Positions 50,030 to 64,000 are shown, counted from the first letter of the stretch. The stretch: DNA of 64,000 bases from Acidobacteriota bacterium (GCA_003222635.1 QHWQ01000313.1:873-64872); one strand, 5' to 3'. The notes: generated by a model not told the origin, from the letters alone. Numbers and translations: made by a program.

Positions 50030-50963
50030 CCCCATCTTTCGGCTGAGCGACTGCCCGCAGCACCTGACGTTCATCGACTGGGTCAAATCCGAGACGGATT
50101 GGCACGACGCCGAGTCGCGCGCGAAACCGCGTGGAAAGTATCCAACGCTCATCGAGCTCGAAGGCCCCGACTTCGACATGAGCGCCATCGGTGGCGCGGT
50201 CGTCGAGGCGATGGGACTCTACGGTGTCTACGGCTGGGCGACCAACGACGGCGCGCGATCGAATGGTTACGTCGGTTTCAGCCTCACCTACAACCCCGAT
50301 CACGAGGAGGGGATCGACGTCCACGCATCGCTGCTCGGCTCGGGCCGGTTGTCGAAGGACGAGTACTTCGCCCGTTTCACCTACCAGGACGCCAACGCCC
50401 GGACCCGCGGCAAGAACAGCTACGACGATACGTACGCCTTCAGGAAACGCACGCCGGCCAGCCGGCACAAGGCGCTCGGCGCGTTCATCGATCGGTTTTC
50501 GCGGCCGCTGCTGCGCAGCCGCGTGTCGGCGATGCGCGGCTCGCTCGGAGGGCAGCAGGCGATTGTCGGCGTCAAACATACGGATCCCAAACGCTGCGAC
50601 GCAGGCTGGCACAGGGACGAGCCGGTCTTCCTTCACCTCAGAGTGAACCTGCCGGTCATCACGCACCCGTCGTTCCGCACGCAGATTGAAGACACGGTGG
50701 ATGCGTTCCTCGAGCCCGGCAGACTCTACAGCTGGGACACCGATCTGCCACATCGGCCGATCGCCACGGAGCGAATCGACAAGGTTCGCATCCATCTGGT
50801 CCTGGGCTTCTCGCCGTGGCTCGATTATCTCGAAGAGGAGCAGGCCTACGTGCTCAACGAGTACTACGGGCGGCTCCATCCGTTCGACATGCTCAACGAA
50901 GGTCTGATCTTCCCGGGCACCCGCATCGCGACGAAGAACTCGATGGAGGTGTCGCTCACATGA
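50022..50963 (+). CDS. Putative Fe(II)/2-oxoglutarate-type cupin oxygenase (Asp/Asn beta-hydroxylase-like), low-confidence family call
   Basis: 313-aa ORF overlapping the A1 stop by 8 nt. Candidate facial triad in GWHRDEPVFLHLRVNLPV...YSWDTDLPHRP (HxD...H), laid out like AspH-family cupins. Assignment rests on motif resemblance only. Confidence 0.45.
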   Translation: MNSPIFRLSDCPQHLTFIDWVKSETDWHDAESRAKPRGKYPTLIELEGPDFDMSAIGGAVVEAMGLYGVYGWATNDGARSNGYVGFSLTYNPDHEEGIDVHASLLGSGRLSKDEYFARFTYQDANARTRGKNSYDDTYAFRKRTPASRHKALGAFIDRFSRPLLRSRVSAMRGSLGGQQAIVGVKHTDPKRCDAGWHRDEPVFLHLRVNLPVITHPSFRTQIEDTVDAFLEPGRLYSWDTDLPHRPIATERIDKVRIHLVLGFSPWLDYLEEEQAYVLNEYYGRLHPFDMLNEGLIFPGTRIATKNSMEVSLT

Positions 50964-51108
50964 ATAGAACCCGGTCTCTACTCGCGACGGAGACCGTCGA
51001 CCGGGACGCCGATGGACGGCGAATCCGGCGATCGATCCTGCTGGTATGGATTCTGCGGACCGCAGCACCACGCGTGTCGTACACGTGATCGCGCGAAGGA
51101 GAAAAAGC

Positions 51109-51435
51109 ATGGCAAATCGGTCAAAGCCGACGACTCGGAGAGAGCTGGAGACGGCGATTGTCGTCAAGGCGATCAAGGACGGCGAGTTCCGTCAGAGGCT
51201 GCTGAGCAATCCACGCGAAGGCGTTGTGGCGGCGGTCAAGGAGATCGATCCGGACTTCGAGATTCCACAGGGCATCGACGTCAAGGTGTTCGAGGAGCCG
51301 AAGAAGGCGTTCTACCTGGTGCTCCCCCAGACCCCGACGGACAACATCGAGATCTCGGACGAAGACCTCGAAAAGGTGGCGGGTGGCATCTTCACCGACC
51401 AGTGGGGGGATGCCACGGTCATCATCGGCTACTAG
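51109..51435 (+). CDS. NHLP RiPP precursor A2 (divergent leader class)
   Basis: ORF 51046..51435. Likely start MANRSKP at 51109, preceded by AAGGAG. Leader ELETAIVVKAIKDGEFRQRLLSNPREGVVAAVKEIDPDFEIPQGIDVKVFEEPKKAFYLVLPQTP. Double-Gly ...DEDLEKVAGG, then the 15-aa core IFTDQWGDATVIIGY. Confidence 0.85.
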   Translation: MANRSKPTTRRELETAIVVKAIKDGEFRQRLLSNPREGVVAAVKEIDPDFEIPQGIDVKVFEEPKKAFYLVLPQTPTDNIEISDEDLEKVAGGIFTDQWGDATVIIGY

Positions 51436-51464
51436 GCACCGGACAGCGAACCGATGGGTTGCCG

Positions 51465-51508
51465 GGGTCCTACGTCTGGAGAGCCGTACGACCCCGCGTT
51501 TCCTTTTA
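51465..51508 (+). terminator. Candidate intrinsic terminator/attenuator just downstream of precursor A2
   Basis: GGGGTCCTACG (51465-51475) pairs with CGTACGACCCC (51486-51496): 11 bp with one mismatch and a 10-nt loop. It is followed by the T-rich GCGTTTCCTTTT. Confidence 0.4.
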
Positions 51509-51543
51509 CCTCGACCCGTCAGAAGCCAGGCACGAGCTCGCGA

Positions 51544-53646
51544 ATGACTGACGTCTGCCTCGTACAGATGCCGTACGCGCTGGTGAACCGCCCCTCGCTG
51601 GGGTTGAGCCTGCTGAAGTCCTATCTCGAGACCGCGGGGCTGAGCACGCGCATTCTGTACGCGAACATCCTGTTCGCCGAGGAGATCGGGCTCGACGTGT
51701 ATCGCGCGGTGGAGGAATCGCCGCCGCACGATCTGCTGGGCGAGTGGACCTTCTCGGAGGCGGCGTTCGGCGCTGGCTGGGGCGATCCCGACGCCTACTT
51801 CCGGCTCATCGCCCGCAGCTTCGGCGATGCGCACATGAAAGTCCTGCGGCGCTTCCACCCCGGCGTCGATCTCAAGCAGCTCTTTCTGCTGCTGCGGCAA
51901 CGCGCCGTCGACTTCGTCGATCGCTGCGCCCGCGACGTCATCGATCGCTCGCCGCGCATCGTCGGCTGCACCTCGATGTTCCACCAGCAGGTCGCATCGC
52001 TGGCCCTGTTGCGGCGCGTGCGGCAGCTCGATCCGAACGTCATCACCATGCTCGGCGGCGCCAACTGCGAAGGACCCATGGGGAGGAAGACGGCCGAGCT
52101 GTTCCCATGGGTGGACTTCGTCAACTCCGGCGAAGCGGACGCGTACATTGGCTCCTTCTGCCGCCGCCTGGTGGACACCGGCCTTCCGGCCGGCGTCGAG
52201 GAGCTCCCCGAGGGACTGTTCGGGCGGGCGCGCCGCCGCGCCTCCGATGCGCCGCCGCGAAATGGCCCGCGGCGGCTCCCTCTCGCCGGAGAGGCGGCGG
52301 AAGGCCGGACCGCGCCCCGGGCCGTCGTCCACAATCTCGACGCCACCGCCGTGCCGTCGTTCGACGAGTACTTCGAGGCGTTCGCGAAATCCTCGTTCAT
52401 CGATTACGTCACGCCGACGCTGCCGATCGAAACGTCCCGCGGCTGCTGGTGGGGACAGGTGAGCCACTGCACGTTCTGCGGTCTCAACAGCTCGGGCATC
52501 GTCTTTCGATCGAAGTCGCCGGACCGGGTGCTCTTCGAGATGCGCTATCTCTCCGACCGCCACGGCGTCCGTCGCTTCGAGACGGCCGACGAAATTCTCG
52601 ACATGGCGTTCCTGAAGACCGTGCTGCCGCGGCTGGCCGACGAGACGCCGTACACGATTTTCTACGAGGTGAAATCGAACCTCAAACGCGATCAACTGGA
52701 AGTGCTGGCGAAGGCGGGCGTGCGCGAGGTGCAGCCCGGGATCGAGAACCTGCACGACGAGATGCTGAAGCTGATCGCCAAGGGCAACACCGGCCTGATG
52801 AACATCCAGTTCCTGAAATGGGCCGCGGAGCTGGGCATGCGAGTCGGCTGGAACTTCCTGTTCGGCGCGCCCGGCGAGTGCGATCACTGGTACCAGGAGA
52901 TCGCCGAACGCGTTCCGCTCCTGCTTCATCTGCAGCCGCCAGGGTGCGTCTCGCGAATCGGCTACCACCGGTTCAGCCCCTATCACGACGATCCCGCGCG
53001 CTTCGGCATCAGCCTCGATCCGCGCCGCGCGTACGGCCACGTGTATCCCGTGGCCGCCGAGAATCTCCGCGACCTCGCCTACTACTTCGAGGACTACGGC
53101 GACCGCTCCCGCGGCGAGATCGAGCCCGCGTTGCCGGGCCACGACAGGCCGGGTCTCAGAGCAGCGGCGGCGGCAATCCGACGCTGGCGGCATGCGTTCT
53201 ACAGCTCCACGCGCGAGCGCCCGGTCCTGGTGGCCGAGCCCTCCAGTGCCGGACTGCTCGTGCGCGACACCCGGCTCGTGGCGACGGCGCGCGAACATCG
53301 TCTCGAGCCGATGCCGGCCACGGTGCTGAGACTGTGCCGTACGGCGGCCACGGAAGCCTCGCTGCGCAGCAGCCTGGACGCGACGGCAGGCCGGACGATC
53401 TCGTCTGCCGAATTGCACGACACGTTGAGCGACCTGCAGAACCGAAAGCTGATCCTGCAGGATCGCGGACGCTTCCTCAGTGTGGTCCTCGACACGATGC
53501 GGCCGCTGCCGACGCATGCGGAATCCGCCGCGGGAGAAATCCGCACCGTCGATTTCGCGCGGCACTTCGCCGCGCGCAGTCTGGCGCGAGAGTGCATCCG
53601 TCTCCCCCAGGACGTCCCCGTCCCGGAGCTGTTCTCGGTCTCGTAG
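51544..53646 (+). CDS. Cobalamin-binding-domain (class B) radical SAM RiPP maturase, paralog 1 (TIGR03975-like)
   Basis: ORF 51454..53646, likely start MTDVCLVQMPY at 51544. B12-like N-domain (VGCTSMFHQQVASLALLRRVRQLDPNVITMLGGANCEG) and cluster motif ETSRGCWWGQVSHCTFCGLN. Followed by EVKSNLKRDQLEVLAKAGVREVQPGIENL. Confidence 0.8.
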   Translation: MTDVCLVQMPYALVNRPSLGLSLLKSYLETAGLSTRILYANILFAEEIGLDVYRAVEESPPHDLLGEWTFSEAAFGAGWGDPDAYFRLIARSFGDAHMKVLRRFHPGVDLKQLFLLLRQRAVDFVDRCARDVIDRSPRIVGCTSMFHQQVASLALLRRVRQLDPNVITMLGGANCEGPMGRKTAELFPWVDFVNSGEADAYIGSFCRRLVDTGLPAGVEELPEGLFGRARRRASDAPPRNGPRRLPLAGEAAEGRTAPRAVVHNLDATAVPSFDEYFEAFAKSSFIDYVTPTLPIETSRGCWWGQVSHCTFCGLNSSGIVFRSKSPDRVLFEMRYLSDRHGVRRFETADEILDMAFLKTVLPRLADETPYTIFYEVKSNLKRDQLEVLAKAGVREVQPGIENLHDEMLKLIAKGNTGLMNIQFLKWAAELGMRVGWNFLFGAPGECDHWYQEIAERVPLLLHLQPPGCVSRIGYHRFSPYHDDPARFGISLDPRRAYGHVYPVAAENLRDLAYYFEDYGDRSRGEIEPALPGHDRPGLRAAAAAIRRWRHAFYSSTRERPVLVAEPSSAGLLVRDTRLVATAREHRLEPMPATVLRLCRTAATEASLRSSLDATAGRTISSAELHDTLSDLQNRKLILQDRGRFLSVVLDTMRPLPTHAESAAGEIRTVDFARHFAARSLARECIRLPQDVPVPELFSVS

Positions 53647-53649
53647 CCA

Positions 53650-55167
53650 GTGGGGAAGCACGCGATGACTGCGCCGATTGCGGAGCGAACACGGGCCGAT
53701 GCGCAATGGAGCCCGGCGCGCTATAGCGTGCTGTGCCGGATGAAGCGGTTCTTCGAGCGCTACGACGGCGACGCGGAGTTTCGCGTCCGCTACGAGCAGA
53801 ACCCGCGGCGGGCGCTCGCATCCGTCGCTCCCGATCTCGCCCTCGAGGACATCCGGGCCGTTCGCAGCGTACCGCGCCATCCGCCCGCGAGCATCGTCGA
53901 CGACGTCTCGCTGCCGCCGCTCGCCCGCGACTACTGCCGCTTCGTGCTCGAGCGAGCGCTGCGCTTCAATCGGCTGCGCGCGGAAGCGGGGCCGCTCGAT
54001 CCGCGTTTTCGCGGCTGGCGCCGCCGCCGCATGCTGCAGGCCGAGGACGAGCTCGGTTCCGAGTTCTCACAGATGTTGCTGTTCTCGACGGCCGCGTTCG
54101 AGCTGTCGAAGGGTTGCAGCGTCGGTTGCTGGTTCTGCGGAGTCTCGGCGCCGCGCCTCGAGGATCACTTTCGATATACCTCCGTGAACCGGCGCCTCTG
54201 GCGTGAGGTGCTCGAGGCCATGATCGACCTCGGCGGTCTCGAGGCGATGCACATCAACTTCTGCTTCTGGGCCACCGACCCGCTCGACAACCCCGACTAC
54301 GAAGCGTTCGCTGACGACTACCGCGCGATCGCCGGCGCGTACCCGCCGCTGACGACGGCGCTGGCGCTGCGCGACCCGGAGCGGACGCGCCGGATGCTCG
54401 ATCGGTTCGATGCCGATGTGTGCCGGTTCTCGATCCTGACGGTTCCGATGCTCGACCGGCTGCATCGCGAGTTCACTCCGGAGGAACTGGGAGGCGTGGA
54501 CCTGGCGCTGGTCACTCCAGGATCCAGGATGATCAAGGCGAACGCGGGCCGCTTCCGCGAGCGCGCGGCCGCGCACCCCGAGCTGCTGCAGGTTGAGCGC
54601 GGCAAGCGAAGCGCGCGCCGTGAATTCTTTCAAGGTCCCGCCGATCGCGGCGAGGACGTGCCGGGCACCATCGCCTGCGTCGCCGGATTCCTGATCAACA
54701 TGGTCGAACGGCGGGTCCGTCTCATCAGCCCCTGCGCGGCGTCGGAGAGGTGGCCTCTCGGCTTTGTCCTCTACGGCGATCGCCGCTTTGAGGACGGCCG
54801 CGACTTCCGGCGCGTCTGCGAAGAGCTGGTGTGCGAGCACATGTTCACGCGCTGGCCAGCCGGCCGTGCGGTACGCTTCCGGCCCTCGCTTCACTTTCAC
54901 CCGCTCGGGTCGGGTTTCGAGCTGCGCTCCACGCACCATCGCTGGTCGATCGAGGCCGCCTGGCAGGGCGCCGCCTGCCACGATCTTGGCGCCTGGATCA
55001 ACGACGGATGTCACCAGCCGGGCGAGCTCACGGAGCTGCTCCTCGAGCGCCACTTCGTGTCCGCCTTTGAAACGGAGAAGCAAATCAGTCAACTGCTCCG
55101 CGAGGGCCTGCTCGACGAAGAGCCGCCGCCGCGCGCCGCCACATCTCCATCTCAGGGAGCGCCATGA
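53650..55167 (+). CDS. Radical SAM enzyme with an N-terminal extension of about 150 aa (possible peptide-modifying maturase)
   Basis: Canonical CX3CX2C in FELSKGCSVGCWFCGVSA at about residue 155. No B12 domain and no obvious SPASM Cys cluster. 505 aa (alternative start at 53665). Confidence 0.65.
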   Translation: MGKHAMTAPIAERTRADAQWSPARYSVLCRMKRFFERYDGDAEFRVRYEQNPRRALASVAPDLALEDIRAVRSVPRHPPASIVDDVSLPPLARDYCRFVLERALRFNRLRAEAGPLDPRFRGWRRRRMLQAEDELGSEFSQMLLFSTAAFELSKGCSVGCWFCGVSAPRLEDHFRYTSVNRRLWREVLEAMIDLGGLEAMHINFCFWATDPLDNPDYEAFADDYRAIAGAYPPLTTALALRDPERTRRMLDRFDADVCRFSILTVPMLDRLHREFTPEELGGVDLALVTPGSRMIKANAGRFRERAAAHPELLQVERGKRSARREFFQGPADRGEDVPGTIACVAGFLINMVERRVRLISPCAASERWPLGFVLYGDRRFEDGRDFRRVCEELVCEHMFTRWPAGRAVRFRPSLHFHPLGSGFELRSTHHRWSIEAAWQGAACHDLGAWINDGCHQPGELTELLLERHFVSAFETEKQISQLLREGLLDEEPPPRAATSPSQGAP

Positions 55168-57278
55168 TGAGCGATGTCGTTCTGGTACAGATGCCGTACG
55201 CGTCGGTGCAGCGTCCTTCGATCGCGCTCGGGCTGCTCAAGAGGTATCTCGTCGACGCGGGCATCACCACCACGGTTCTCTACTCGAACATCGCGTGGGC
55301 CGAGGAGGTCGGACTCGACATGTACCGGCTCTCGGATGGGACGCTCACGCCGCACCTGGTTGGCGAATGGACGTTCGCGGGCGCCGCGTTTCCCGGCTTC
55401 GAGCCCGATCACGACGCGTTCTTCCGCCTCATCAGAGATAACGCGACGATGCCGTACTTCCTCAAGATTCGCGCGCTGCATCCGGGCGCGACGATGGCGG
55501 CGGTGCTCGAGGAAGTGCGGCGTCGCGCCGACGGGTTCATCGACAGGCTCGCGCGGAGCATCGCCGCGCGCCGTCCGCGGATTGTCGGCTGCACGTCGAT
55601 GTTCCAGCAGCACTGCGCCTCGCTTGCGCTGCTGCGCCGTATCCGCGAGCTCGATCCCGGCGTCGTGACCATGATGGGCGGAGCCAACTGCGAGGGACGC
55701 ATGGGCGACGCGACGCACGCCGCGTTCGACTGGGTCGACTTCGTCGTCTCGGGCGAGGCCGACGGCTTCTTCGCGGCGCTGTGCGGAGAGATCCTCGAGC
55801 ACGGGCGCGAGGTGCCAGCGGCGATCCTTCCCGAGGGCGTGGCCGGACCCGTGCACCGGCGGCAGGCCAGCGGCGCGCGGGGTGCCGCCACGCAGGCCCC
55901 GCGAGCGAATGCGTTCATCGCGCTCGGCGCCCCGCCGCAACCGATCGGACGACCCGTGGTCCACAATCTCGACGACACGAGCATTCCCGACTACGACGAG
56001 TTCTTCGATGCGCTCAATGGTTCGCCGGTGCGCGACTACGTCGAACCGGGTCTGCTCGTCGAGACCTCGCGCGGCTGCTGGTGGGGCGCCAAGCATCACT
56101 GCACGTTCTGCGGGCTCAACGGCTCGGGCATCGTCTATCGCTCGAAGTCGCCGCAGCGCACGCTGACGGAGATCGAGCAGCTGACGGAACGCTACGGCGT
56201 CCGGCAAATCGAGTTCGTGGACAACATCCTCGACATGGGATACGTCGACACCGTCCTGCCGACGCTCGCCGCGCGCGACGAACCGTTGTCGATGTTCTTC
56301 GAGGTGAAGGCCAACCTGAAACGGAAGCACGTCGAGGCCTTTGCCAGAGCCGGCATTCGAGCCGTGCAACCGGGCATCGAAAACATGCACGCCGAGGCGC
56401 TCAAGCTGATCGACAAGGGCAACAGCGCCGTCATCAACGTGCAGCTGATGAAATGGGCGAGGGAGCTCGGCGTCGACGTCCACTGGAACTTCCTCGTCCT
56501 CATACCCGGCGAGTGCGACGAGTGGTACGAAGAGATGGCCAGCTGGCTTCCGCTCGTCCAGCATCTGGCGCCGCCGATGAACGTCGTCAGGCTGCGGTTC
56601 GATCGCTTCAGCATGTACCACGAACGGCCGGAGCACTGGGGACTGACGCTGGCTCCGTACCGGACCTACTCGTATGTCTATCCGCTGCCCGTCCAGGCGC
56701 TCTCGGACCTGGCTTACTTCTTCGAGTCGAAAGAGGATCTGGCGCGAGATGACCTGACGCCGGAGATGATGGCCGCGCTGCGTCCCGGCCTGGAGGCAGT
56801 CCGGACATGGGTGTTCGACTGGATGCGATTGAACAGGCGTCCGAGCGACCAGCGTCCGGTCCTCACGATGGCCGATGACGGTGACGCGATCCGTATCAGG
56901 GACACGCGCTCAATCGCGACGCGCAGCGATCACGTACTGCGCGGGCTGTCACGTCTGGTCTATCTCACCTGCGATGACGCCATTGCCGCCGACGGTCTGG
57001 TCGGCGCGCTGAATCGGCGCTTCGATTGCTCGGCGACGTGGACTGACGTCGCACCAGTCGTCAACGATCTGGTGGCGAACAAACTGATGCTCGCGGTCGA
57101 GTCGCGATACCTGAGTCTGGCGACGGTCGAAGGCCGGGATGCGGCCGCGAGTCTGATCTCGCCGTTCGGCGGACTCGATTTCGAACGCGCGGCCCAGGAC
57201 CTGGGTTCGCGGAGCCTGGCCGAAGCCTGTCGCTACTTGCCGGAGTCCGTCACCGTGCAGGAGCTCTTTGCCGTATGA
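55164..57278 (+). CDS. Cobalamin-binding-domain (class B) radical SAM RiPP maturase, paralog 2 (TIGR03975-like)
   Basis: MMSDVVLVQMPYASVQRPSIALGLLKRYL, VGCTSMFQQHCASLALLRRIRELDPGVVTMMGGANCEG, ETSRGCWWGAKHHCTFCGLN. Collinear with 51544..53646. The start overlaps the upstream stop. Confidence 0.8.
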   Translation: MMSDVVLVQMPYASVQRPSIALGLLKRYLVDAGITTTVLYSNIAWAEEVGLDMYRLSDGTLTPHLVGEWTFAGAAFPGFEPDHDAFFRLIRDNATMPYFLKIRALHPGATMAAVLEEVRRRADGFIDRLARSIAARRPRIVGCTSMFQQHCASLALLRRIRELDPGVVTMMGGANCEGRMGDATHAAFDWVDFVVSGEADGFFAALCGEILEHGREVPAAILPEGVAGPVHRRQASGARGAATQAPRANAFIALGAPPQPIGRPVVHNLDDTSIPDYDEFFDALNGSPVRDYVEPGLLVETSRGCWWGAKHHCTFCGLNGSGIVYRSKSPQRTLTEIEQLTERYGVRQIEFVDNILDMGYVDTVLPTLAARDEPLSMFFEVKANLKRKHVEAFARAGIRAVQPGIENMHAEALKLIDKGNSAVINVQLMKWARELGVDVHWNFLVLIPGECDEWYEEMASWLPLVQHLAPPMNVVRLRFDRFSMYHERPEHWGLTLAPYRTYSYVYPLPVQALSDLAYFFESKEDLARDDLTPEMMAALRPGLEAVRTWVFDWMRLNRRPSDQRPVLTMADDGDAIRIRDTRSIATRSDHVLRGLSRLVYLTCDDAIAADGLVGALNRRFDCSATWTDVAPVVNDLVANKLMLAVESRYLSLATVEGRDAAASLISPFGGLDFERAAQDLGSRSLAEACRYLPESVTVQELFAV

Positions 57279-58516
57279 CAGTGGACCTGCTGACACTCCT
57301 CGGTCCCGTTTCTCTCGAGGAGTTCTTCAATCGGTACTGGGAGAGCCGGCCGCTGGTGCTTCAGCTCGACAGGGCGGCGTTGTGCCAATCGCTCCTGCAG
57401 GTGCCGGACGTCGAGTTCCTGACGGCTTCGCTGGGGAGCCTCGACGCGAAATGGATTCGTCTCGTCAACAACCGGCCGGGCGGACCCATGAGGGAATTTC
57501 AGCGGCCCGGCCAGGGTGTGTCGATGGACCGCATCCTCGATGCGTATCGTGAAGGGACGACCGTCGTCCTCAACGATCTGCAGCGGCGATGGCCACCCAT
57601 CCGCGATCTAGCGAGCCGCCTGTGGCACGATTTCAACGACGCGGCGGAGCTGCCGCTGCGCGCGGTGGGCGTCAACGCCTACCTCTCACCGCCAAACGCC
57701 GAAGGACTGGCGGCCCATTTCGATTCGCACTGCGTCTTCATCCTCCAGATCAGCGGCCGCAAGACGTGGACGTTGTACGACGAGCGCGAAGAGCTGCCGT
57801 CACCGGACGGTCTCGATCCGTCGGCGTCGCGCGCCACGCGTGCCGATGCGCCGGGCACGCGCGTGCACGAGGTGACGCTTGCGTCCGGCGACTTCGTGTA
57901 CATCCCGCGCGGGCTGGTGCACAAGGCGCAGACGGCCGACAGCCACTCGCTGCACCTGGCGGTTGGCCTTTATCCCTGCACCTGGGGTGAGGTGCTGGCG
58001 GATGCGATCCGATCGGTCCCCGCGTGCCGCCGGTCGCTGCCGCGCGGCAGCCTGTCGGGGACGCACCTGTCTCCGGAGACACAGCGCGCGTTCGCCAGCG
58101 TGATGCAATCGGTCGTCGATCGGACGAGCGCGGCAACAGCAATCGGCCTGGCGCGCACCGAGATCGAACGGCTGCGCGAGCGCCTGCAATCCCGCGGGTT
58201 CGAGCGCTGCCACGCTGTCGAAGCGATCGACAGGCACACGCGCGTCGTCCGGCGCGGTGACGTCCGGCTCAGCCTGACGCGGCAGGGCGAAAAGGTCGTC
58301 ATGGAGATCGGCAGCGGCAACTCGTTTCAGGCACCCGCGGCGGCCGAGCCGGCGTTACGCTACATCGTCGAGAACAGATCCTTTACGCTGTCGTTCATGC
58401 CGGGAATGTTGAGCGAAGGGTCGAAGCGGGTGCTGGTGAAGCGGCTCCTGAAGGAGGGCGTCCTCGAGCTGGCGCCGACGGAGGAGACATGTCAGACCGT
58501 GGCGAGAACAATGTGA
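57275..58516 (+). CDS. JmjC/cupin-4 (ribosomal-oxygenase YcfD/ROX-like) Fe(II)/2OG oxygenase
   Basis: N-terminal LEEFFNRYWESRPLVL, NAYLSPPNAEGLAAHFDSHCVFILQISGRKTW (HxD), FVYIPRGLVHKAQTADSHSLHLAVG (distal His). C-terminal winged-helix-like tail. The start overlaps the upstream stop. Confidence 0.7.
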   Translation: MTVDLLTLLGPVSLEEFFNRYWESRPLVLQLDRAALCQSLLQVPDVEFLTASLGSLDAKWIRLVNNRPGGPMREFQRPGQGVSMDRILDAYREGTTVVLNDLQRRWPPIRDLASRLWHDFNDAAELPLRAVGVNAYLSPPNAEGLAAHFDSHCVFILQISGRKTWTLYDEREELPSPDGLDPSASRATRADAPGTRVHEVTLASGDFVYIPRGLVHKAQTADSHSLHLAVGLYPCTWGEVLADAIRSVPACRRSLPRGSLSGTHLSPETQRAFASVMQSVVDRTSAATAIGLARTEIERLRERLQSRGFERCHAVEAIDRHTRVVRRGDVRLSLTRQGEKVVMEIGSGNSFQAPAAAEPALRYIVENRSFTLSFMPGMLSEGSKRVLVKRLLKEGVLELAPTEETCQTVARTM

Positions 58517-58728
58517 TCGCAGTCCTGCTTCCGCTGGGACTGGCGATCTTCGGGTTCTGGATCTGGATGTTCGTTGACGCGTTGCGGAACAAGAGGTTGA
58601 CCCCACACGACCGGAAGTGGTGGGCGATCGTGCTCGTGGTGCTGCGACCGGTAGGAGCACTGCTCTATTACTTCAAGCAGTACCGCGGGCGACGGTTGTC
58701 CAATGTGAGCCGCCCGAAAACGTCGTAA
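58489..58728 (+). CDS. Small membrane protein with a PLD-nuclease N-terminal (PLDc_N) domain
   Basis: 79 aa with two helices: VIAVLLPLGLAIFGFWIWMFVDAL...KWWAIVLVVLRPVGALLYYF, matching the PLDc_N pattern. The ORF overlaps the end of the JmjC gene by 28 nt. Confidence 0.6.
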   Translation: MSDRGENNVIAVLLPLGLAIFGFWIWMFVDALRNKRLTPHDRKWWAIVLVVLRPVGALLYYFKQYRGRRLSNVSRPKTS

Positions 58729-58753: not shown

Positions 58754-59875
58754 ATGCGCTGGTCATTGGCCCACGTCCTCGACGCGGCCGCGCCGCACCT
58801 CGACGTGTGGCTCGCCGCTCCGCGGGAGCTGACGCGCGCCCGCTCGCTGCTCGCCTCGCTGCCCGCCGCGATCTCGGATTGGATCTACCTCGAGTTCCGG
58901 CTCTCTCCACGCGATGCCCGAATAGATGTCATTGTCCGAGTGGACGAGGCACACCGGCATCGACTCGCCTGCGGATCGCCGTGGCGGCGCGCCAACGCGT
59001 TTGCACGGATGTGGGCGGATCCTGAAGTGGGCTGGAATCGCGCGATCGAAAACCTCTGGCTCGAGTTCGATTTGGAGGGCGCCGCGAGTGACGAGTCTCC
59101 GCATCTGCACGAGCCGCGGTTCTTCGTCGACTTCACATCGTCGATTCGGAACGACCCATCACCCGACATTCGGTGGCGCGTGGCGTGCGATGCCATCGCG
59201 CCGTTATGTCCGGAGGCGCTGCCCTCTGAGGTCACGCAATCGCTGAGGCGCACGCTGCATGCGCTGCCATGCGGCGCGTCGCTGCTCTCGGTAGGACTGC
59301 CTCACGGTGCGGCGATGCCGGGCCTGCGTGTCTGCCTGACCGGTGTCGCGACGAGCGACCTCTCTTCATTCCTCCGCGCGGCCGGCTGGGCATGTGACGG
59401 CGGTGGCGTGTCGGAGGTCCTCCATCAGCTGTTCGACGCGCCGGGCGGAGCAGGCGTGATTGACCTCGTCGATCTCGATCTCACATCCGACGGTCGCGGC
59501 GCACTGAGCATCGAGCTCGGCTTCGCGCGCAAGCCGCAGCTGCGCGGCGCGATCGAGGAGCGGCACCTGCTCGAACGTCTCGCGGCATGTCATGCGATCG
59601 ATGCGGCGTCGATCGACGCGCTTGGCGCCTGGCCGGGGTATGAGAGGGCGCGCCTGGCGCACGTGTTCTGGCCGGCGCTCCTCGTTCGCCGGATCAACCA
59701 CGTCAAGCTGATGTTCGAGGACGGTCGCATCAGCGGCGTGAAGGCCTATCTGTGCGTGTTCCACCGCTTCAGCCGGCCGATAGCGCCACGCCTCTATTCG
59801 ATAGATCGTGCGCTCGATTGCGAAGTCGATCGCTTCCTCCCTGACAGTGGAACCGCGCCCGCGCCGCTCGCGTAA
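58754..59875 (+). CDS. Hypothetical protein, no recognisable motif (cluster-specific)
   Basis: 373-aa ORF with consistent GC-rich third codon positions. No cofactor or nucleotide-binding motif seen. Repeated short beta-strand-like segments (IYLEFRL, IDVIVRV, LWLEFDL, FFVDF, LRVCLTG, LSIELGF, VKLMFE, VKAYLCVF). Confidence 0.6.
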   Translation: MRWSLAHVLDAAAPHLDVWLAAPRELTRARSLLASLPAAISDWIYLEFRLSPRDARIDVIVRVDEAHRHRLACGSPWRRANAFARMWADPEVGWNRAIENLWLEFDLEGAASDESPHLHEPRFFVDFTSSIRNDPSPDIRWRVACDAIAPLCPEALPSEVTQSLRRTLHALPCGASLLSVGLPHGAAMPGLRVCLTGVATSDLSSFLRAAGWACDGGGVSEVLHQLFDAPGGAGVIDLVDLDLTSDGRGALSIELGFARKPQLRGAIEERHLLERLAACHAIDAASIDALGAWPGYERARLAHVFWPALLVRRINHVKLMFEDGRISGVKAYLCVFHRFSRPIAPRLYSIDRALDCEVDRFLPDSGTAPAPLA

Positions 59876-59932: not shown

Positions 59933-60235
59933 ATGTGCGTGCCCAATGACCAACAAGATCAGTTGCTGAAGGCCGTCCTGAAACGGGCCACGGTCGACCG
60001 GCCCTTTCGTCAGGGGCTGCTGACGAATCCGCACACCGCCATCGAGCAGGCGTTCGGGATCACGGTGCCCGCCGAGTATCGCGTGCGTTTCGTCGAACGC
60101 GATGCCGACGTTGACGCGCTGATCGTGTTGCCCGGCTTCGACGCCCATGCCGCCGAACTGCAGAACGACGAACTATCGGACGACGAGCTCGAGCACGTGG
60201 CGGGCGGCAAGCACGCCCACAGGTGGGGTGACTAA
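59933..60235 (+). CDS. NHLP RiPP precursor A3 (same leader class as A1)
   Basis: Leader DQLLKAVLKRATVDRPFRQGLLTNPHTAIEQAFGITVPAEYRVRFVERDADVDALIVLP. Double-Gly ...DDELEHVAGG, then the 8-aa core KHAHRWGD. Confidence 0.8.
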   Translation: MCVPNDQQDQLLKAVLKRATVDRPFRQGLLTNPHTAIEQAFGITVPAEYRVRFVERDADVDALIVLPGFDAHAAELQNDELSDDELEHVAGGKHAHRWGD

Positions 60236-60256: not shown

Positions 60257-61780
60257 ATGCCGATGACGACCGATGCGCTTCCGCTCCCGGCGGCATTCGA
60301 GCTTCAGCGCACGCGTGACGCTGATGATGCCCCGGAACTGACAGAGGACGACCTCGCGTGTGTCGTTGGCGGACTGGCGCGGGCCTGGTCGGCACCGCCG
60401 GATGAACACCGCGCGTCCGACCATGAGAGTCCAACGTATCAAGGCGTCCTCGTCGCCGCCGGTGAACCTTTCGATCCGCGCTTCAGCACCTCGGTCGGCG
60501 GATCGCGCGAGACCCAGTTCACGGGCGCGACGCCGGCCGGACGCACCGATGCGGTGGCCTACGGCGCCGGCGGCAGCTGGCGATTGCGCTCGGGCTTCCA
60601 GCTCCAACCGGAATTCAGCATGACCGGCGCCAGCTTGCTGACCGCCTCGCGACTCGCGCTCGGACAGTCGTCGATGAAGCTTGGCCTGCTGATTCCGTTG
60701 CAGAACGATCGCGGCGGCATCGTCACGGCGGGCCCGGAGCGCGCGGCACGCTACGAGGTGGACGCCAGCCGCTCGCGGCTGCGGCAGGCGATCACCGACG
60801 CGGCCTATTCCACGGCGGCGGCCTATTGGGATTACGTGGCAACACTCCAGCGCCAGGCGATCTACGCCGCATCAGAAGCACGCGCCGCGCGTCTGGTCGA
60901 TGAAACGCGTGTGCTCGTGCAGGCGGACGAGCGGACGGCCGCCGACCTCACGCAGCTGCTCGGCAACCTCGCCGCCAAGCGCGCCATCCGGCTCGGCGCC
61001 GATCTCGCGGTGACGCAGGGATGGGAACGCCTCGTCCTGGCGATGGGCGTAGAAGCGACGACAGTGCAGCGAGCGGCCGTGCCCGCAACGCCGTTTCCCC
61101 CCGTCGTTGCGGCGTGGACGCCGCCGCCGCTGGCCGCATTGATCGGTGACGCGAGGCTTCGCCGCGCCGATCTGACAGCGGCGACGCAGCAGGTCGAGGC
61201 GTCACGCGTGCTGGTCGACGCGGCGCGCAACAATCTGCAGGACTGGCTCGACCTGGTGCTGACGGGCGGCTACAAAGGGTGGCAGCTCGGCGGCGGGGCC
61301 GATCGGTTCTTCACACCGCTGTTCCGCGAGATCCCGGGCGTCGATGCGTCGGTCCAGATCCGCTACGAGTTTCTCGCGAGCAATGCTGGCAACCGCGGCC
61401 GCCTGCTGCAGCAGTCGGCGATCGACGACACACGCCATCTCGCGCTCGCCGACCTCGAACGCCACGTGGCAGCCGAAGTCGTGGTGGCCGTTGAGGTGCT
61501 GCGGCGCAGCACTGACTCCCTGGCCGCGTCTCAGGAGGCGGGGCGGCTCTTCGACGAGGGCGTACAGAACGAGGAACGCAAGTTTCGCCTCGGCCTGTCC
61601 ACGCTGTTCGACGTGATTCAGGCCGCAGACGGGCTCACCAACGCGCGGCTGACCGAAACGGCCGCGCAGCGCGACTATGCAGTGGCGATCGCCACGCTGC
61701 GGTATCAGTCCGGGACGCTGCTGCGCTTCGACGAGGAGCGTCCAGTGATCGACGCGGCCAACCTGCTCACGCCTCCCTGA
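60257..61780 (+). CDS. TolC-family outer-membrane efflux protein with an atypical N-terminus
   Basis: The C-terminal 350 aa or so has TolC-like coiled helices (AAYSTAAAYWDYVATLQRQAIYAASEARAARL..., RRADLTAATQQVEASRVLVDAARNN, FRLGLSTLFDVIQAADGLTNARLTETAAQRDYAVAIATLRYQSGTL). The first 60 aa or so lack a signal peptide and instead resemble a double-Gly leader. Confidence 0.7.
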   Translation: MPMTTDALPLPAAFELQRTRDADDAPELTEDDLACVVGGLARAWSAPPDEHRASDHESPTYQGVLVAAGEPFDPRFSTSVGGSRETQFTGATPAGRTDAVAYGAGGSWRLRSGFQLQPEFSMTGASLLTASRLALGQSSMKLGLLIPLQNDRGGIVTAGPERAARYEVDASRSRLRQAITDAAYSTAAAYWDYVATLQRQAIYAASEARAARLVDETRVLVQADERTAADLTQLLGNLAAKRAIRLGADLAVTQGWERLVLAMGVEATTVQRAAVPATPFPPVVAAWTPPPLAALIGDARLRRADLTAATQQVEASRVLVDAARNNLQDWLDLVLTGGYKGWQLGGGADRFFTPLFREIPGVDASVQIRYEFLASNAGNRGRLLQQSAIDDTRHLALADLERHVAAEVVVAVEVLRRSTDSLAASQEAGRLFDEGVQNEERKFRLGLSTLFDVIQAADGLTNARLTETAAQRDYAVAIATLRYQSGTLLRFDEERPVIDAANLLTPP

Positions 61781-61789
61781 CCCACAGCC

Positions 61790-63052
61790 ATGCCCTCGAA
61801 CGCGATCTTCAGAAAAGTTGCACTCGATCGTCTGGCCTCGCCCGAGCAGCTCGATCAGTTGATGCAGGTCACCGACCCGCGAGGATGGATCGCGCTGGTC
61901 GGCCTCAGCTTCGTGGTCGCGACGGCGGTCGCCTGGGGCGTGCTGGGCAGCGTGCATCAGAACGTCCATGGAGCGGGCATCCTGGTGCGCAGCGGCGGCG
62001 TTTTCGAAGTGGTCCCGCTCGCCGGAGGACGTGTCATCGACGTCTCGGTCGCCCCCGGCGCCGTCGTGAACGCGGGACAGGTCGTCGCGCGGTTGGACCA
62101 GCCCGACTTGCTCGAAGGCCTCGCGCGCGCGAAAGCCACGCTCGCGGCCCTGCGCGACGAGCACCAGCAGACGATTGAGTACGGCGACAAGGACATCGTG
62201 CTGCAGACCAGCTACCTGAAGGAGCAGCGCACGACGATCGAACATGCCATTGCGGCCGCCGAGCGGAACATGGCGTGGTACCAGGAAAAGATCGCCTCGC
62301 AGCAAGGGCTCGTCACGGACGGCCTGCTGCTGAAGCAGGCCCTGCTCACCACTCAGCAGCAGTACGACGCTGCGAACGAACGCCTGGCGGACGCGCGCAG
62401 CCAGCTCGCGCAGCTGGAAGTGCGCGAACTGGAGCTGCACAACAAGAAGGACGAGGCCATCGAGGACAGTGAGCTGAAGCTCGAAGAACACGAGCGCGCG
62501 CTGTCGGAGCTCGAACGCGAGCTCAAGGCGAAAAGCGAAGTCGTCGCTCCGCAGGGAGGACGCATCCTCGAGGTGATGACCGAAACGGGCGCCGTCGTCG
62601 CCGCCGGTCAGCCGGTGCTTTCGCTCGATCTGACGGGGCGCACTGTCAAGGACCTGGAAGCGGTGATGTACGTGCCCTCGATCCAGGGCAAACAGATTCG
62701 GGTCGGCATGCCGATGCTGGTCGCCCCGGCGACGGTGAAGCAGGAGGAATTCGGGATGATGCTCGGCCGCGTCACCTACGTCTCGGATTTCCCGGCGACG
62801 ATGAAAGGCATGCAGCGCATGTTGAAGAACGAGCGCCTCGTCGCCGGACTCGCGGGCAGCGACGCACCGTACGAAGTGCACGCGGACCTCGTCCTCGATC
62901 CCGCCACCGTGAGCCGCTACCGGTGGACCTCGTCGCAAGGGCCGCCTACGAAGATCGAGAGTGGCACCCTCGCGGCCGCGAGTATCACGGTCACGACGCG
63001 CCGCCCGATCGAGCTGGTGATTCCGTTGATTCGCGAGTACCTGGGACTGTAG
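61790..63052 (+). CDS. NHLM bacteriocin-system secretion protein (HlyD-family periplasmic adaptor, TIGR03794-like)
   Basis: FRKVALDRLASPEQLDQLMQVTDPRGWIALVGLSFVVATAVAWGVLGSV, followed by lipoyl-like and long coiled-coil segments. This is the typical N-terminus of this family. Confidence 0.85.
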   Translation: MPSNAIFRKVALDRLASPEQLDQLMQVTDPRGWIALVGLSFVVATAVAWGVLGSVHQNVHGAGILVRSGGVFEVVPLAGGRVIDVSVAPGAVVNAGQVVARLDQPDLLEGLARAKATLAALRDEHQQTIEYGDKDIVLQTSYLKEQRTTIEHAIAAAERNMAWYQEKIASQQGLVTDGLLLKQALLTTQQQYDAANERLADARSQLAQLEVRELELHNKKDEAIEDSELKLEEHERALSELERELKAKSEVVAPQGGRILEVMTETGAVVAAGQPVLSLDLTGRTVKDLEAVMYVPSIQGKQIRVGMPMLVAPATVKQEEFGMMLGRVTYVSDFPATMKGMQRMLKNERLVAGLAGSDAPYEVHADLVLDPATVSRYRWTSSQGPPTKIESGTLAAASITVTTRRPIELVIPLIREYLGL

Positions 63053-63068
63053 GCGACGGGACCTGCCC

Positions 63069-64000
63069 ATGACGACCGCTGCGGACACGACCGGCCGCTT
63101 CGCGACATTCTTCACGACTCCTCTCCATCTGTCGCGCTTCGTGGCGCGGCGCGGCCGCGCGACGAAGCGGGTGAAAACACCCACCGTGCTGCAGATGGAG
63201 GCCGTCGAGTGCGGCGCCGCGGCGCTGGCGATGGTCCTCGCCTACTTCGGCCGCTTCGTGCCACTGGAGGAGCTGCGCGTCGAATGCGGCGTGTCGCGTG
63301 ACGGCAGCAAGGCCAGCAACGTCCTGAAGGCTGCGCGCGCCTACGGTCTCGACGCCAAAGGGTTCAGGAAAGAGCCCGCGCAGCTGAGGACCCTTCCGGT
63401 GCCGATGATCCTGCACTGGAATTTCAACCACTTCGTCGTGTTCGAAGGCTTCCGTCGCGGCGGCGCCTACATCAACGACCCCGCGGCCGGCGCCATGCGC
63501 ATCTCCGAGGACGAGCTCGATCAGGCCTTCACCGGCGTCGCGCTGGTGTTCCAGCGCAGCGCCGCGTTCGTGCGAGGCGGGGAGCGGGCGAGCCTGTTGA
63601 GAGCGCTGCGCCGCCGCCTTGTCGGTTCGGGCGCGGCGCTGGCGTTCGTCGTCACGGCCGGGTTCGCCCTGCTGGTCCCTGGACTGGTGGCGCCGGCATT
63701 CAACAAGGTGTTCGTCGACGAGGTCCTCATCAAGGGACTGGCGACGTGGATCAAGCCGTTGCTGTGGCTGATGGGCGCCGGCGCGCTGGTCACCGCGGCG
63801 CTCACCTGGCTGCAGCAGACCTACCTGCTGCGGCTCGAAAGCACGATGTCGCTGACGATGTCGAGCCGTTTTCTCTGGCACGTGCTGCGGCTGCCCGTCG
63901 ACTTCTTCGCCCAGCGGTTCGCGGGAGACATCAGCTATCGCGTGGGCATCAACGACCGGGTCGCACGGCTGCTGTCGGGCGACCTTGCGACGACGGCGCT
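63069..64000 (+). CDS. NHLM-type bacteriocin export ABC transporter with an N-terminal C39 peptidase domain (partial, runs off the window)
   Basis: Absent from the ORF track because it is open-ended. My translation from ATG 63069 gives ...KTPTVLQMEAVECGAAALAMVLAYFGRFVPLEELRVECGVSRDGSKASNVLKAARAYGLDAKGF...HWNFNHFVVFEGF...INDPAAG, which is a C39 Cys/His peptidase, followed by transmembrane helices. Confidence 0.85.
   Translation, partial: MTTAADTTGRFATFFTTPLHLSRFVARRGRATKRVKTPTVLQMEAVECGAAALAMVLAYFGRFVPLEELRVECGVSRDGSKASNVLKAARAYGLDAKGFRKEPAQLRTLPVPMILHWNFNHFVVFEGFRRGGAYINDPAAGAMRISEDELDQAFTGVALVFQRSAAFVRGGERASLLRALRRRLVGSGAALAFVVTAGFALLVPGLVAPAFNKVFVDEVLIKGLATWIKPLLWLMGAGALVTAALTWLQQTYLLRLESTMSLTMSSRFLWHVLRLPVDFFAQRFAGDISYRVGINDRVARLLSGDLATTA

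What the first reader, a model, noticed from the sequence alone, without database searches (positions are those of the whole stretch)
57275..58516. JmjC/ROX (YcfD-like) oxygenase embedded in a RiPP operon
The protein has the cupin-4 layout (N-terminal FFxxYWE, HxD in AAHFDSH, distal His in HSLHLAVG, C-terminal winged-helix-like domain). This layout characterises the ribosomal oxygenases that hydroxylate Arg or His in ribosomal proteins. Its start overlaps the stop of rSAM paralog 2, so it belongs to the operon. Cores A1 and A3 contain Arg and His next to the Trp (A3: KHAHRWGD; A1: GR), which are the residue types ROX enzymes hydroxylate. Recruitment of this family to peptide natural-product tailoring would be unusual.
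Basis: partly seen in the sequence, partly recalled or inferred. Interest (0 to 1): 0.65.

Follow-up and report, generated by a model that had tools for sequence, protein, structure and literature searches.

The report
JmjC peptide hydroxylase in proteusin cluster
The gene really encodes an iron/2-oxoglutarate "ribosomal-oxygenase-like" enzyme built into an operon that makes a modified ribosomal peptide in an Acidobacteria genome, but enzymes of this family have already been shown to hydroxylate such peptides, so this is a new example of a known kind.

Summary
Observation confirmed. Window 57275-58516 (+) encodes a 413-aa PF08007/JmjC_2 protein. It has the FFNRYWE motif, an invariant H148-x-D150...H227 iron triad and a 2OG-binding Lys163. 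The AlphaFold model aligns over its full length with NO66, MINA53 and YcfD. Its ATG overlaps the stop of the upstream B12-radical-SAM gene (ATGA).

The operon is a proteusin-type RiPP cluster:
- three NHLP precursors
- two PoyB/C-like C-methyltransferases
- a PoyD-like epimerase
- this JmjC
- a second, unannotated Fe/2OG oxygenase
- TolC/HlyD/C39-ABC export

The only orthologous cluster found (59% identity) keeps the JmjC and adds a Trp halogenase. About 11 of 16 distinct relatives' neighbourhoods look RiPP-like, and none is ribosomal.

The claim that this recruitment is "unusual" does not hold. PhaI is a PF08007 enzyme in an NHLP proteusin. BipG/PbsQ, CzlI and TcaO are also published RiPP hydroxylases, and cupin-4+NHLP clusters were noted in 2022.

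Cores next to the nearest relatives share Trp-Gly(-Asp), as do A2 and A3, which points to that patch instead.

Verdict: new member of a known kind, modest interest.

The parts
57275..58516 (+). JmjC_2 (PF08007) Fe(II)/2OG oxygenase, 413 aa, ROX-type three-domain architecture
   Evidence: Pfam 86 bits. PDB sequence hits to MINA53/NO66/YxbC/YcfD. AF2 pLDDT 88 with full-length Foldseek matches to NO66/MINA53/YcfD.
57323..57343 (+). N-terminal FFNRYWE motif (residues 17-23)
   Evidence: family consensus FFxxYWExxPL; F17 invariant.
57716..57724 (+). H148-x-D150 iron ligands
   Evidence: Invariant in 37 sequences. Aligned to the HxD of MINA53/NO66.
57761..57763 (+). Lys163, predicted 2OG C5-carboxylate ligand
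   Evidence: Invariant. Aligns with the Lys of MINA53 in GEKHW and with an Arg of E. coli RoxA in GRRRW.
57953..57955 (+). His227, distal iron ligand
   Evidence: Invariant, while H224 is not.
57983..58222 (+). Helical (dimerisation-type) middle domain, residues about 237-316
   Evidence: Helices 237-316 in the AF2 model. Covered by the full-length ROX structural alignments.
58226..58474 (+). C-terminal beta-beta-beta/alpha-alpha winged-helix (RRE-like) domain, residues about 318-400; inferred leader-binding module
   Evidence: Secondary-structure order in the model. PF08007-fused RRE-like folds are described in PMC12710340. Leader binding is an inference.
49721..50029 (+). Precursor A1 (NHLP-like leader, ..LAGG | core RNTGEMTWFTEGRATDE at 49976-50026)
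   Evidence: TIGR03793 39 bits, below the cutoff. NHLP HMM hit. Core coordinates.
50022..50963 (+). Second oxygenase 'Ox313': Fe(II)/2OG double-stranded beta-helix protein from a family with no Pfam or NCBIfam model
   Evidence: No Pfam/NCBIfam/PDB sequence hit. 274 homologs with invariant W196-H197-x-D199...H244...R256. AF2 pLDDT 91; Foldseek to Fe/2OG hydroxylases 7v4f at 1e-9 and to proline hydroxylases.
51046..51435 (+). Precursor A2 (NHLP leader, ..VAGG | core IFTDQWGDATVIIGY at 51388-51432)
   Evidence: TIGR03793 76 bits.
51454..53646 (+). B12-binding radical SAM, PoyB/C-type RiPP C-methyltransferase family (likely true start 51544)
   Evidence: TIGR03975 674 bits.
53650..55167 (+). PoyD-type radical SAM peptide epimerase
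   Evidence: TIGR04517 432 bits.
55164..57278 (+). Second B12-binding radical SAM (TIGR03975); its stop overlaps the JmjC start
   Evidence: TIGR03975 718 bits. ATGA overlap.
58489..58728 (+). 79-aa PLDc_N small membrane protein; overlaps the JmjC 3' end; conserved in the orthologous cluster
   Evidence: PF13396. 45% identity to the L001 homolog.
58754..59875 (+). 373-aa protein of unknown function
   Evidence: No hit in Pfam, NCBIfam or PDB. Not found in L001.
59933..60235 (+). Precursor A3 (NHLP leader, ..VAGG | core KHAHRWGD at 60209-60232)
   Evidence: TIGR03793 59 bits.
60257..61780 (+). TolC-like outer-membrane efflux protein
   Evidence: PF02321.
61790..63052 (+). HlyD-type membrane-fusion / NHLP bacteriocin secretion protein
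   Evidence: PF13437. 42% identity to the L014 homolog and 28% to the L019 'NHLP bacteriocin system secretion protein'.
63069..64000 (+). C39-peptidase ABC exporter (partial, runs off the window); expected to cut after the Gly-Gly
   Evidence: Open frame to the window end. 58% identity to the L014 Peptidase_C39/ABC gene and 53% to the L019 'NHLP family bacteriocin export ABC transporter peptidase/permease/ATPase'.

Best explanation
The gene encodes a catalytically competent Fe(II)/2-oxoglutarate JmjC oxygenase. It has the ribosomal-oxygenase (ROX) architecture of a JmjC barrel, a helical domain and a C-terminal winged helix. It is co-transcribed and translationally coupled with the maturases of a proteusin-type RiPP cluster and works as a peptide tailoring hydroxylase.

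Inferred mechanism:
- The enzyme binds an NHLP precursor (A1, A2 or A3) while the leader is still attached, probably through its C-terminal RRE-like winged-helix domain.
- It places one core side chain over the Fe(IV)=O formed from O2 and 2OG.
- It installs one hydroxyl group (+15.995 Da), before or after epimerisation and C-methylation.
- The C39-ABC/HlyD/TolC system then cuts after Gly-Gly and exports the peptide.

Most likely target (inference, about 0.4): the conserved Trp-Gly-Asp patch of the cores, meaning the Trp itself or the neighbouring Asp, rather than Arg or His.

Shown here: family, fold, intact active site, operon membership, and the RiPP association of relatives. Inferred: leader dependence, timing, and the residue and carbon modified.
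For: - Family, fold and active site.
- Operon coupling. The surrounding genes are NHLP precursors, TIGR03975 methyltransferases and a TIGR04517 epimerase.
- Orthologous cluster L001/L013 keeps rSAM2 (59%), JmjC (59%), Ox313 (70%) and PLDc_N (45%), and inserts a Trp halogenase directly upstream of the JmjC.
- Relatives at 29-37% identity sit in these contexts:
  - an MNIO+NHLP cluster (L006)
  - a YcaO/ThcOx+NHLP cluster (L010)
  - LanM clusters (L019)
  - an rSAM+C39-ABC cluster (L014)
  - an MNIO cluster with two JmjC genes (L016)
  - an rSAM cluster (L020)
  - next to GG-leader or other small ORFs (L017, L018)
- Published precedents for PF08007/JmjC RiPP hydroxylases. RRE-like C-terminal domain.
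- W-G(-D) motif: window A2 QWGD and A3 RWGD; L006 SEWG; L010 IWGD. The JmjCs of L006 and L010 fall in the clade sister to window+P0002 in an NJ tree. The chance of WG appearing in all three clusters is 5.5e-6 for random cores and 0.014 for within-core shuffles.
Against: - No biochemical data exist. The cluster carries a second Fe/2OG oxygenase (Ox313), so any +16 Da could come from either enzyme.
- The W-G-D correlation rests on three clusters and may reflect shared ancestry of the precursors rather than JmjC specificity.
- Other relatives have cores without Trp (L014, L016, L017, L018).
- A1 has W-F, not W-G.
- Characterised family members hydroxylate very different residues (Orn, Phe, Ile, Arg, His), so specificity cannot be read from family membership.
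- The NJ tree is rough and has no support values.
Confidence: 0.65

Rival explanations
1. One reading: the enzyme keeps ROX-type chemistry and C3-hydroxylates the Arg or His residues of cores A3 (KHAHRWGD) and A1 (..EGRATDE).
For: - The closest solved structures are His hydroxylases (MINA53, NO66) and Arg hydroxylases (YcfD).
- A3 is rich in His and Arg, and A1 has Arg.
- L014 and L017 cores next to relatives also contain His/Arg.
Against: - A2 (IFTDQWGDATVIIGY) has no Arg or His.
- The cores of the nearest NHLP-linked relatives (ASEWG, IWGDVCGIC, GNDSSGEINC) have none either.
- The position before Trp varies (R, Q, I, E).
- Identity to RoxA is only 22%.
- Characterised RiPP members of the family act on Orn, Phe and Ile.
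Confidence: 0.18
2. Biphenomycin-like logic: the JmjC (or Ox313) hydroxylates an aromatic ring (Trp, Phe or Tyr) to prime it. One of the B12-radical-SAM enzymes then forms a C-C or C-O cross-link instead of methylating.
For: - CzlI is a JmjC that hydroxylates a Phe ring.
- In biphenomycin a B12-rSAM cross-links hydroxylated aromatics, and a JmjC is in the same cluster.
- All three window cores contain Trp, and A1/A2 also have Phe/Tyr.
Against: - Both rSAMs score 675-718 bits on TIGR03975, the PoyB/C C-methyltransferase family model.
- A3 has a single aromatic residue.
- In biphenomycin the JmjC hydroxylates Orn, not the aromatic ring.
Confidence: 0.1
3. The gene is a housekeeping ribosomal-protein oxygenase (a YcfD/RoxA analogue) that merely happens to lie in the operon.
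For: The ROX architecture. Some sources annotate relatives as 'ribosomal protein L16 Arg81 hydroxylase'.
Against: - There is a 4-nt start/stop overlap with a RiPP maturase.
- It is retained in the orthologous cluster.
- None of the 16 distinct relatives' neighbourhoods is ribosomal, and about 11 look RiPP-like.
- E. coli roxA sits between pepT and phoQ, in no such context, and is only 22% identical.
Confidence: 0.03
4. It is not a hydroxylase here. It acts as an N-methyl demethylase, a desaturase or halogenase-type variant, or a non-catalytic leader-binding scaffold.
For: JmjC enzymes include demethylases. EreI is needed for the activity of a partner methyltransferase in pythonamide.
Against: - The full HxD...H triad rules out a halogenase, which lacks the carboxylate ligand. 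Lys163 is invariant.
- No N-methyltransferase is present in the cluster.
- All characterised RiPP members of the family hydroxylate.
Confidence: 0.04

Closest known systems
PhaI (phaeornamide/selidamide pathway, Pseudophaeobacter arcticus; PMC8784127)
   Same: A PF08007 Fe(II)/2OG hydroxylase encoded in a proteusin cluster. It acts on an NHLP-leader precursor with a Gly-Gly junction and peptidase-ABC export.
   Different: PhaI hydroxylates an ornithine made by an OspR-type arginase (PF12640), in a LanM/GNAT cluster. The window has no arginase, LanM or GNAT. It instead has PoyB/C-type rSAMs, a PoyD epimerase and very short Trp-containing cores. Sequence identity to PhaI could not be measured because the sequence is not held.
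BipG/BpmG/PbsQ (biphenomycin) and CzlI (curacozole), TcaO (thiocupinamide)
   Same: JmjC/PF08007 or cupin-fold Fe/2OG enzymes that hydroxylate precursor peptides in RiPP pathways. The biphenomycin clusters also combine them with B12-rSAM enzymes.
   Different: They belong to different RiPP classes with non-NHLP leaders. Their substrates are Orn, a Phe ring and Ile. CzlI is closest to YxbC, which lacks the ROX C-terminal layout.
Ribosomal oxygenases NO66, MINA53, YcfD/RoxA (Chowdhury et al. 2014 structures 4ccm, 4bxf, 4lit)
   Same: The same three-domain architecture, HxD...H triad and basic 2OG ligand. They are the best sequence and structure matches in the PDB.
   Different: Only 17-22% identity. 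Their substrates are ribosomal proteins uL2, uL15 and uL16, and their genes are not in biosynthetic operons. Here the context and the relatives point to small precursor peptides.
PoyI / EreI (polytheonamide, pythonamide proteusin hydroxylases)
   Same: Fe/2OG hydroxylases working alongside PoyB/C-type methyltransferases and a PoyD epimerase on NHLP precursors.
   Different: EreI is described as an aspartyl/asparaginyl beta-hydroxylase-family protein and is 22% identical to PoyI. That makes it a different fold family from PF08007. They are functional analogues, not homologues at the family level.

Membership tests
Pfam PF08007 JmjC_2 (formerly Cupin_4) | Profile match above the gathering score | tested here: met
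   86 bits against a cutoff of 22, E 2e-24.
Fe(II)/2OG JmjC oxygenases | HxD/E...H facial triad plus a basic residue for the 2OG C5 carboxylate | tested here: met
   H148, D150, H227 and K163 are invariant in 37 relatives and aligned to the MINA53/NO66/RoxA equivalents.
Ribosomal oxygenase (ROX) subfamily | Three-domain architecture: JmjC barrel, helical dimerisation domain, C-terminal winged helix | tested here: met
   AF2 model with pLDDT 88. Foldseek aligns about 420-465 columns with NO66, MINA53, YcfD and RmYcfD at E 1e-17 to 1e-23.
Ribosomal oxygenase (ROX) subfamily | Substrate is a ribosomal protein (uL16 Arg, uL2 His or uL15 His) | not testable with these tools
   This needs biochemistry. 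Context argues against it: there are no ribosomal neighbours in any of the 16 distinct loci.
YcfD/RoxA orthologue | Close sequence similarity to E. coli RoxA and a stand-alone housekeeping context | tested here: not met
   22% identity over 228 aa. PDB E-value is 4e-4 against 8e-23 for MINA53. The gene is embedded in a RiPP operon. NCBIfam has no RoxA model, so it cannot be used as a test.
RiPP tailoring PF08007 hydroxylases (PhaI, TcaO type) | Encoded within a RiPP cluster next to precursor and maturase genes | tested here: met
   The orthologous cluster is L001.
RiPP tailoring PF08007 hydroxylases (PhaI, TcaO type) | Demonstrated +16 Da on the precursor | not testable with these tools
   Requires co-expression and MS.
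PhaI/BipG-type ornithine hydroxylases | A partner peptide arginase (PF12640 or TPR-arginase) that creates the Orn substrate | tested here: not met
   No PF12640 hit in any cluster gene. The relative P0004 does have one nearby. An arginase encoded elsewhere in the genome cannot be excluded.
Proteusin RiPP cluster | NHLP-leader precursors plus PoyB/C-type and/or PoyD-type radical SAM maturases | tested here: met
   TIGR03793 (A2 76 bits, A3 59 bits), TIGR03975 twice, and TIGR04517.

The most novel reading that the evidence does not exclude
The window JmjC and its sister clade (P0012, P0013 and untested neighbours) form a subfamily dedicated to a short aromatic-Gly-Asp (W-G-D) core motif on NHLP precursors. 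Enzyme plus motif would then be a portable module grafted onto unrelated RiPP chemistries (B12-rSAM/epimerase, MNIO, YcaO). It would install a modification not yet described in proteusins, such as a hydroxy-Trp or a beta-hydroxy-Asp next to Trp. In the orthologous cluster this would combine with Trp halogenation.
Probability: 0.3. Interest if true: 0.55.

Novelty: new member of a known kind. Interest (0 to 1): 0.3.

Why it matters
The finding adds an uncultivated Acidobacteria proteusin pathway to the growing list of RiPP clusters that use ROX-like JmjC hydroxylases. It also shows that the roughly 400-aa bacterial PF08007 clade sits mostly next to precursor-like genes from several RiPP classes.

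In practice the cluster is a compact target for heterologous expression. It has 8-17-residue cores, two C-methyltransferases, an epimerase and two oxygenases, one of them from a family with no Pfam model. The recurring W-G-D motif gives a concrete and cheap hypothesis about substrate specificity.

It does not change the current understanding of either ROX enzymes or RiPP biosynthesis.

Tried and rejected
- **Public-collection scans.** The search for related loci with the 37- and 9-sequence alignments failed because no stretch was conserved enough. The 2-sequence alignment gave only 3 weak loci in genome contigs, and in metagenome contigs only a duplicate of L001. No further orthologous clusters or precursors could be recovered.
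- **Word-indexed homolog search.** It found only 9-12 relatives. The exhaustive representative search was needed.
- **NCBIfam as a YcfD test.** Rejected, because E. coli RoxA itself matches no NCBIfam model.
- **PoyI as a homologue.** Rejected. EreI, which is 22% identical to PoyI, is an Asp/Asn beta-hydroxylase-family protein.
- **Sequences of PhaI, PbsQ and BipG.** These could not be obtained from the held supplements, so no direct identity or tree placement relative to characterised RiPP JmjCs was possible.
- **One wasted literature search.** 'PoyI' alone matched surnames.
- **Promoter/terminator scan.** The scan of the operon gave nothing above the shuffled expectation.
- **Ornithine as substrate.** Considered and set aside, because no arginase is present in the cluster.
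- **Search for extra precursors.** An NHLP-leader HMM scan of all fetched loci found none beyond the window, L006 and L010.
Full report
**1. The observation**

The ORF at 57275-58516 (+) encodes 413 aa. Its third-position GC is 0.83, the same as the neighbouring genes.
- FFNRYWE at residues 17-23
- AAHFDSH at residues 146-152
- HSLHLAVG at residues 224-231

The family assignment is well supported.
- Pfam assigns JmjC_2 (PF08007, the former Cupin_4) at 86 bits against a cutoff of 22.
- A sequence search of the PDB finds MINA53 (8e-23), NO66 (1e-20), B. subtilis YxbC (4e-9) and E. coli/R. marinus YcfD (4e-4).
- An exhaustive search of 1.84 billion representative proteins returns 8950 relatives. 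Of these, 615 are below 1e-30, and most are about 400 aa and 30-39% identical over the full length.
- In a 37-sequence alignment H148, D150, H227 and K163 are invariant. The distal iron ligand is therefore H227, the second His of HSLH. The 2OG-binding basic residue is also in place; it aligns with a Lys of MINA53 and an Arg of RoxA.
- An AlphaFold2 model (pLDDT 88.3) aligns over 420-465 columns with NO66/MINA53 (E about 1e-23) and YcfD (about 1e-17). This confirms the JmjC barrel, the helical domain (residues about 237-316) and the C-terminal winged-helix-like domain (about 318-400).

The start codon overlaps the stop of the upstream gene by 4 nt (GTATGACA).

**2. What surrounds it**

All genes from 49721 to the end of the window lie on the + strand, with short gaps or overlaps. 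In order they are:
- precursor A1
- a 313-aa protein (Ox313)
- precursor A2
- a B12-radical SAM (TIGR03975, 674 bits)
- a PoyD-type epimerase (TIGR04517, 432 bits)
- a second B12-radical SAM (TIGR03975, 718 bits)
- the JmjC
- a 79-aa PLDc_N membrane protein
- a 373-aa unknown protein
- precursor A3
- TolC-like, HlyD-like and C39-peptidase ABC exporter genes

A2 and A3 pass the NHLP-leader model. A1 is a weaker match, but its leader is nearly identical to that of A3. After the Gly-Gly junction the cores are RNTGEMTWFTEGRATDE, IFTDQWGDATVIIGY and KHAHRWGD. This is a proteusin-type cluster. A database name for the identical protein places it in an Acidobacteria MAG. The upstream genes, a GH94 glucan synthase-like giant and Ig-domain proteins, are unrelated.

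**3. Is the JmjC part of the pathway?**

Yes. Besides the translational coupling, the only close homologue found (P0002, 59% identity) lies in an orthologous cluster, L001 (L013 is a duplicate). That cluster keeps the rSAM2 orthologue (59%), Ox313 (70%) and PLDc_N (45%). It also inserts a flavin Trp halogenase (PF04820, 416 bits) between the rSAM and the JmjC, again with overlapping stop and start.

I looked at 15 further neighbourhoods of relatives at 23-37% identity.

| Locus / protein | Neighbourhood |
|---|---|
| L006 | MNIO + partner + two NHLP precursors |
| L010 | YcaO + ThcOx + two NHLP precursors + methyltransferase |
| P0004 locus | LanM + arginase + TauD + three JmjC genes |
| L019 | LanM + Nif11 precursors + NHLP export genes |
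| L014 | rSAM + 48-aa GG-leader peptide + C39 ABC |
| L016 | MNIO + two Cys-rich peptides + two JmjC genes |
| L020 | rSAM + 101-aa ORF |
| L017 | 71-aa GG-leader ORF |
| L018 | 48-aa ORF + S9 peptidase + ABC |
| L009 | methyltransferase + Asp/Arg hydroxylase |
| L007, L008, L011 | Asp/Gly-rich small ORF + Suc_Fer-like gene |
| L002, L015 | unclear |

None is next to ribosomal genes. E. coli roxA, for comparison, sits between pepT and phoQ and is only 22% identical to the window protein.

**4. How it most likely works**

The intact triad and Lys163 indicate ordinary Fe(II)/2OG chemistry: O2 and 2OG give succinate, CO2 and a ferryl species that hydroxylates a C-H bond. The carboxylate ligand D150 argues against halogenase-type chemistry. 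By analogy with characterised RiPP members, the substrate is a leader-bearing precursor.

The C-terminal domain has the beta-beta-beta/alpha-alpha order of an RRE-like winged helix. A 2025 survey reports legitimate RRE folds fused to PF08007 and notes bacterial homologues in RiPP contexts (PMC12710340). I therefore infer that this domain recognises the leader. These mechanistic steps are inferred, not shown.

**5. Which residue?**

The comparison points elsewhere.
- Among relatives with identifiable NHLP precursors, the cores read ASEWG and GNDSSGEINC (L006) and IWGDVCGIC and YDGDHN (L010).
- MAFFT aligns W-G(-D) of A2, A3, L006a and L010a in one register. The residue before Trp is R, Q, E or I.
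- In a rough NJ tree of 66 relatives, the JmjCs of L006 and L010 belong to the clade that is sister to window+P0002.
- WG occurring in all three clusters has probability about 5.5e-6 for random cores. That is about 2e-3 after allowing for any of 400 dipeptides. It is 0.014 if residues are only shuffled within cores.
- The orthologous cluster's Trp halogenase confirms that Trp is a focal residue of this peptide family.

Together this favours the W-G-D patch (the Trp, or the adjacent Asp) as the site. I put this at about 0.4, against about 0.18 for Arg/His.

Several caveats apply:
- The sample is three clusters.
- Precursor and enzyme may simply be co-inherited.
- A1 has W-F rather than W-G.
- Other family members accompany Trp-free cores.
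- The cluster contains a second oxygenase.

**6. The second oxygenase**

Ox313 (50022-50963) has no Pfam, NCBIfam or PDB sequence match. It does have at least 274 homologues, all of which are unnamed or called 'hypothetical protein' by their sources. Invariant residues are W196-H197-x-D199, H244 and R256. Its AF2 model (pLDDT 91.4) matches Fe/2OG hydroxylases: 7v4f at 1e-9, proline 3- and 4-hydroxylases, and PHD2. It overlaps the A1 stop codon.

It may be the functional counterpart of PoyI/EreI, which belong to the Asp/Asn beta-hydroxylase family rather than PF08007. Any hydroxylation seen on the peptides must therefore be assigned by single-gene experiments.

**7. Comparison with what is known**

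PF08007/JmjC enzymes are already established RiPP hydroxylases:
- PhaI hydroxylates ornithine on an NHLP precursor in the proteusin phaeornamide (PMC8784127).
- BipG/BpmG/PbsQ hydroxylate ornithine in biphenomycins, in clusters that also have B12-rSAMs (PMC12707348, PMC12257519).
- CzlI converts Phe to Tyr in curacozole (PMC11575548).
- TcaO (pfam08007) dihydroxylates Ile in a thioamitide (bioRxiv 10.64898/2026.01.07.698260).
- Four sponge-metagenome gene-cluster families with cupin-4 plus NHLP were noted in 2022 (PMC9426513).

No paper in the held library combines 'proteusin' and 'JmjC', but that reflects wording rather than absence. The window enzyme differs from PhaI and BipG in lacking a partner arginase and in its maturase set. 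It differs from ROX enzymes in context and presumably in substrate.

**8. Verdict**

The 'unusual recruitment' claim is out of date, and the target-residue proposal is not favoured by the comparative evidence. This is a new member of a known kind, with interest about 0.3.

The most novel reading still open is a portable W-G-D-specific JmjC/precursor module installing a new Trp- or Asp-centred modification (probability about 0.3; interest if true about 0.55).

Noticed in passing
window 50022-50963 (+): A 313-aa protein with no Pfam, NCBIfam or PDB sequence match. It has at least 274 homologues, all of which are unnamed or called 'hypothetical protein' by their sources. Invariant residues are WHxDE...H...R. 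A confident AF2 model matches Fe/2OG hydroxylases (7v4f, proline hydroxylases). It is a second oxygenase in the cluster, from an undescribed family, and is conserved at 70% identity in the orthologous cluster.
   Followed up: yes
window 51388-51432, 60209-60232; L006 9416-9682; L010 6553-7104: The short cores of NHLP precursors encoded next to the nearest JmjC relatives share Trp-Gly(-Asp): QWGD, RWGD, SEWG, IWGD. This holds although the other maturases differ (B12-rSAM, MNIO, YcaO).
   Followed up: partly
L001 912-2423 (duplicate L013 914-2425): The orthologous cluster carries a flavin-dependent Trp halogenase inserted between the rSAM and the JmjC with overlapping stop and start. A sigma-54 activator lies downstream. 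No precursor gene is on the 7.3-kb contig.
   Followed up: partly
L007 9211-9417, L008 9741-9929, L011 1-168: A JmjC_2 subgroup (Ilumatobacteraceae and others) is always preceded by a small, extremely Asp/Gly-rich ORF with a single Trp (for example ..DGDGGDGG.., DDDDDWDDDDD). It is always followed by a Suc_Fer-like gene. This may be a peptide substrate for Asp or Trp hydroxylation.
   Followed up: no
window 58754-59875 (+): A 373-aa protein inside the operon with no detectable similarity in Pfam, NCBIfam or PDB. It is absent from the available part of the orthologous cluster.
   Followed up: partly
window 58489-58728 (+): A 79-aa PLDc_N-type small membrane protein whose start lies 28 nt inside the JmjC gene. 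It is conserved (45%) in the orthologous cluster and may be an immunity or export accessory protein.
   Followed up: partly
L010 6553-7104 and 10733-11269: Both precursors of this YcaO cluster carry two tandem NHLP leader domains before a 6-9-residue core.
   Followed up: no
window 29241-37757 (+): A 2838-aa protein with GH94 supersandwich/catalytic, glucoamylase and GT2 domains (cyclic beta-1,2-glucan synthase-like). It is unrelated to the RiPP cluster.
   Followed up: no
window 51454-51544: The first radical-SAM ORF probably starts at the ATG at 51544 (MTDVCLVQMPY..., matching the start of the paralogue and of TIGR03975) rather than at 51454.
   Followed up: partly
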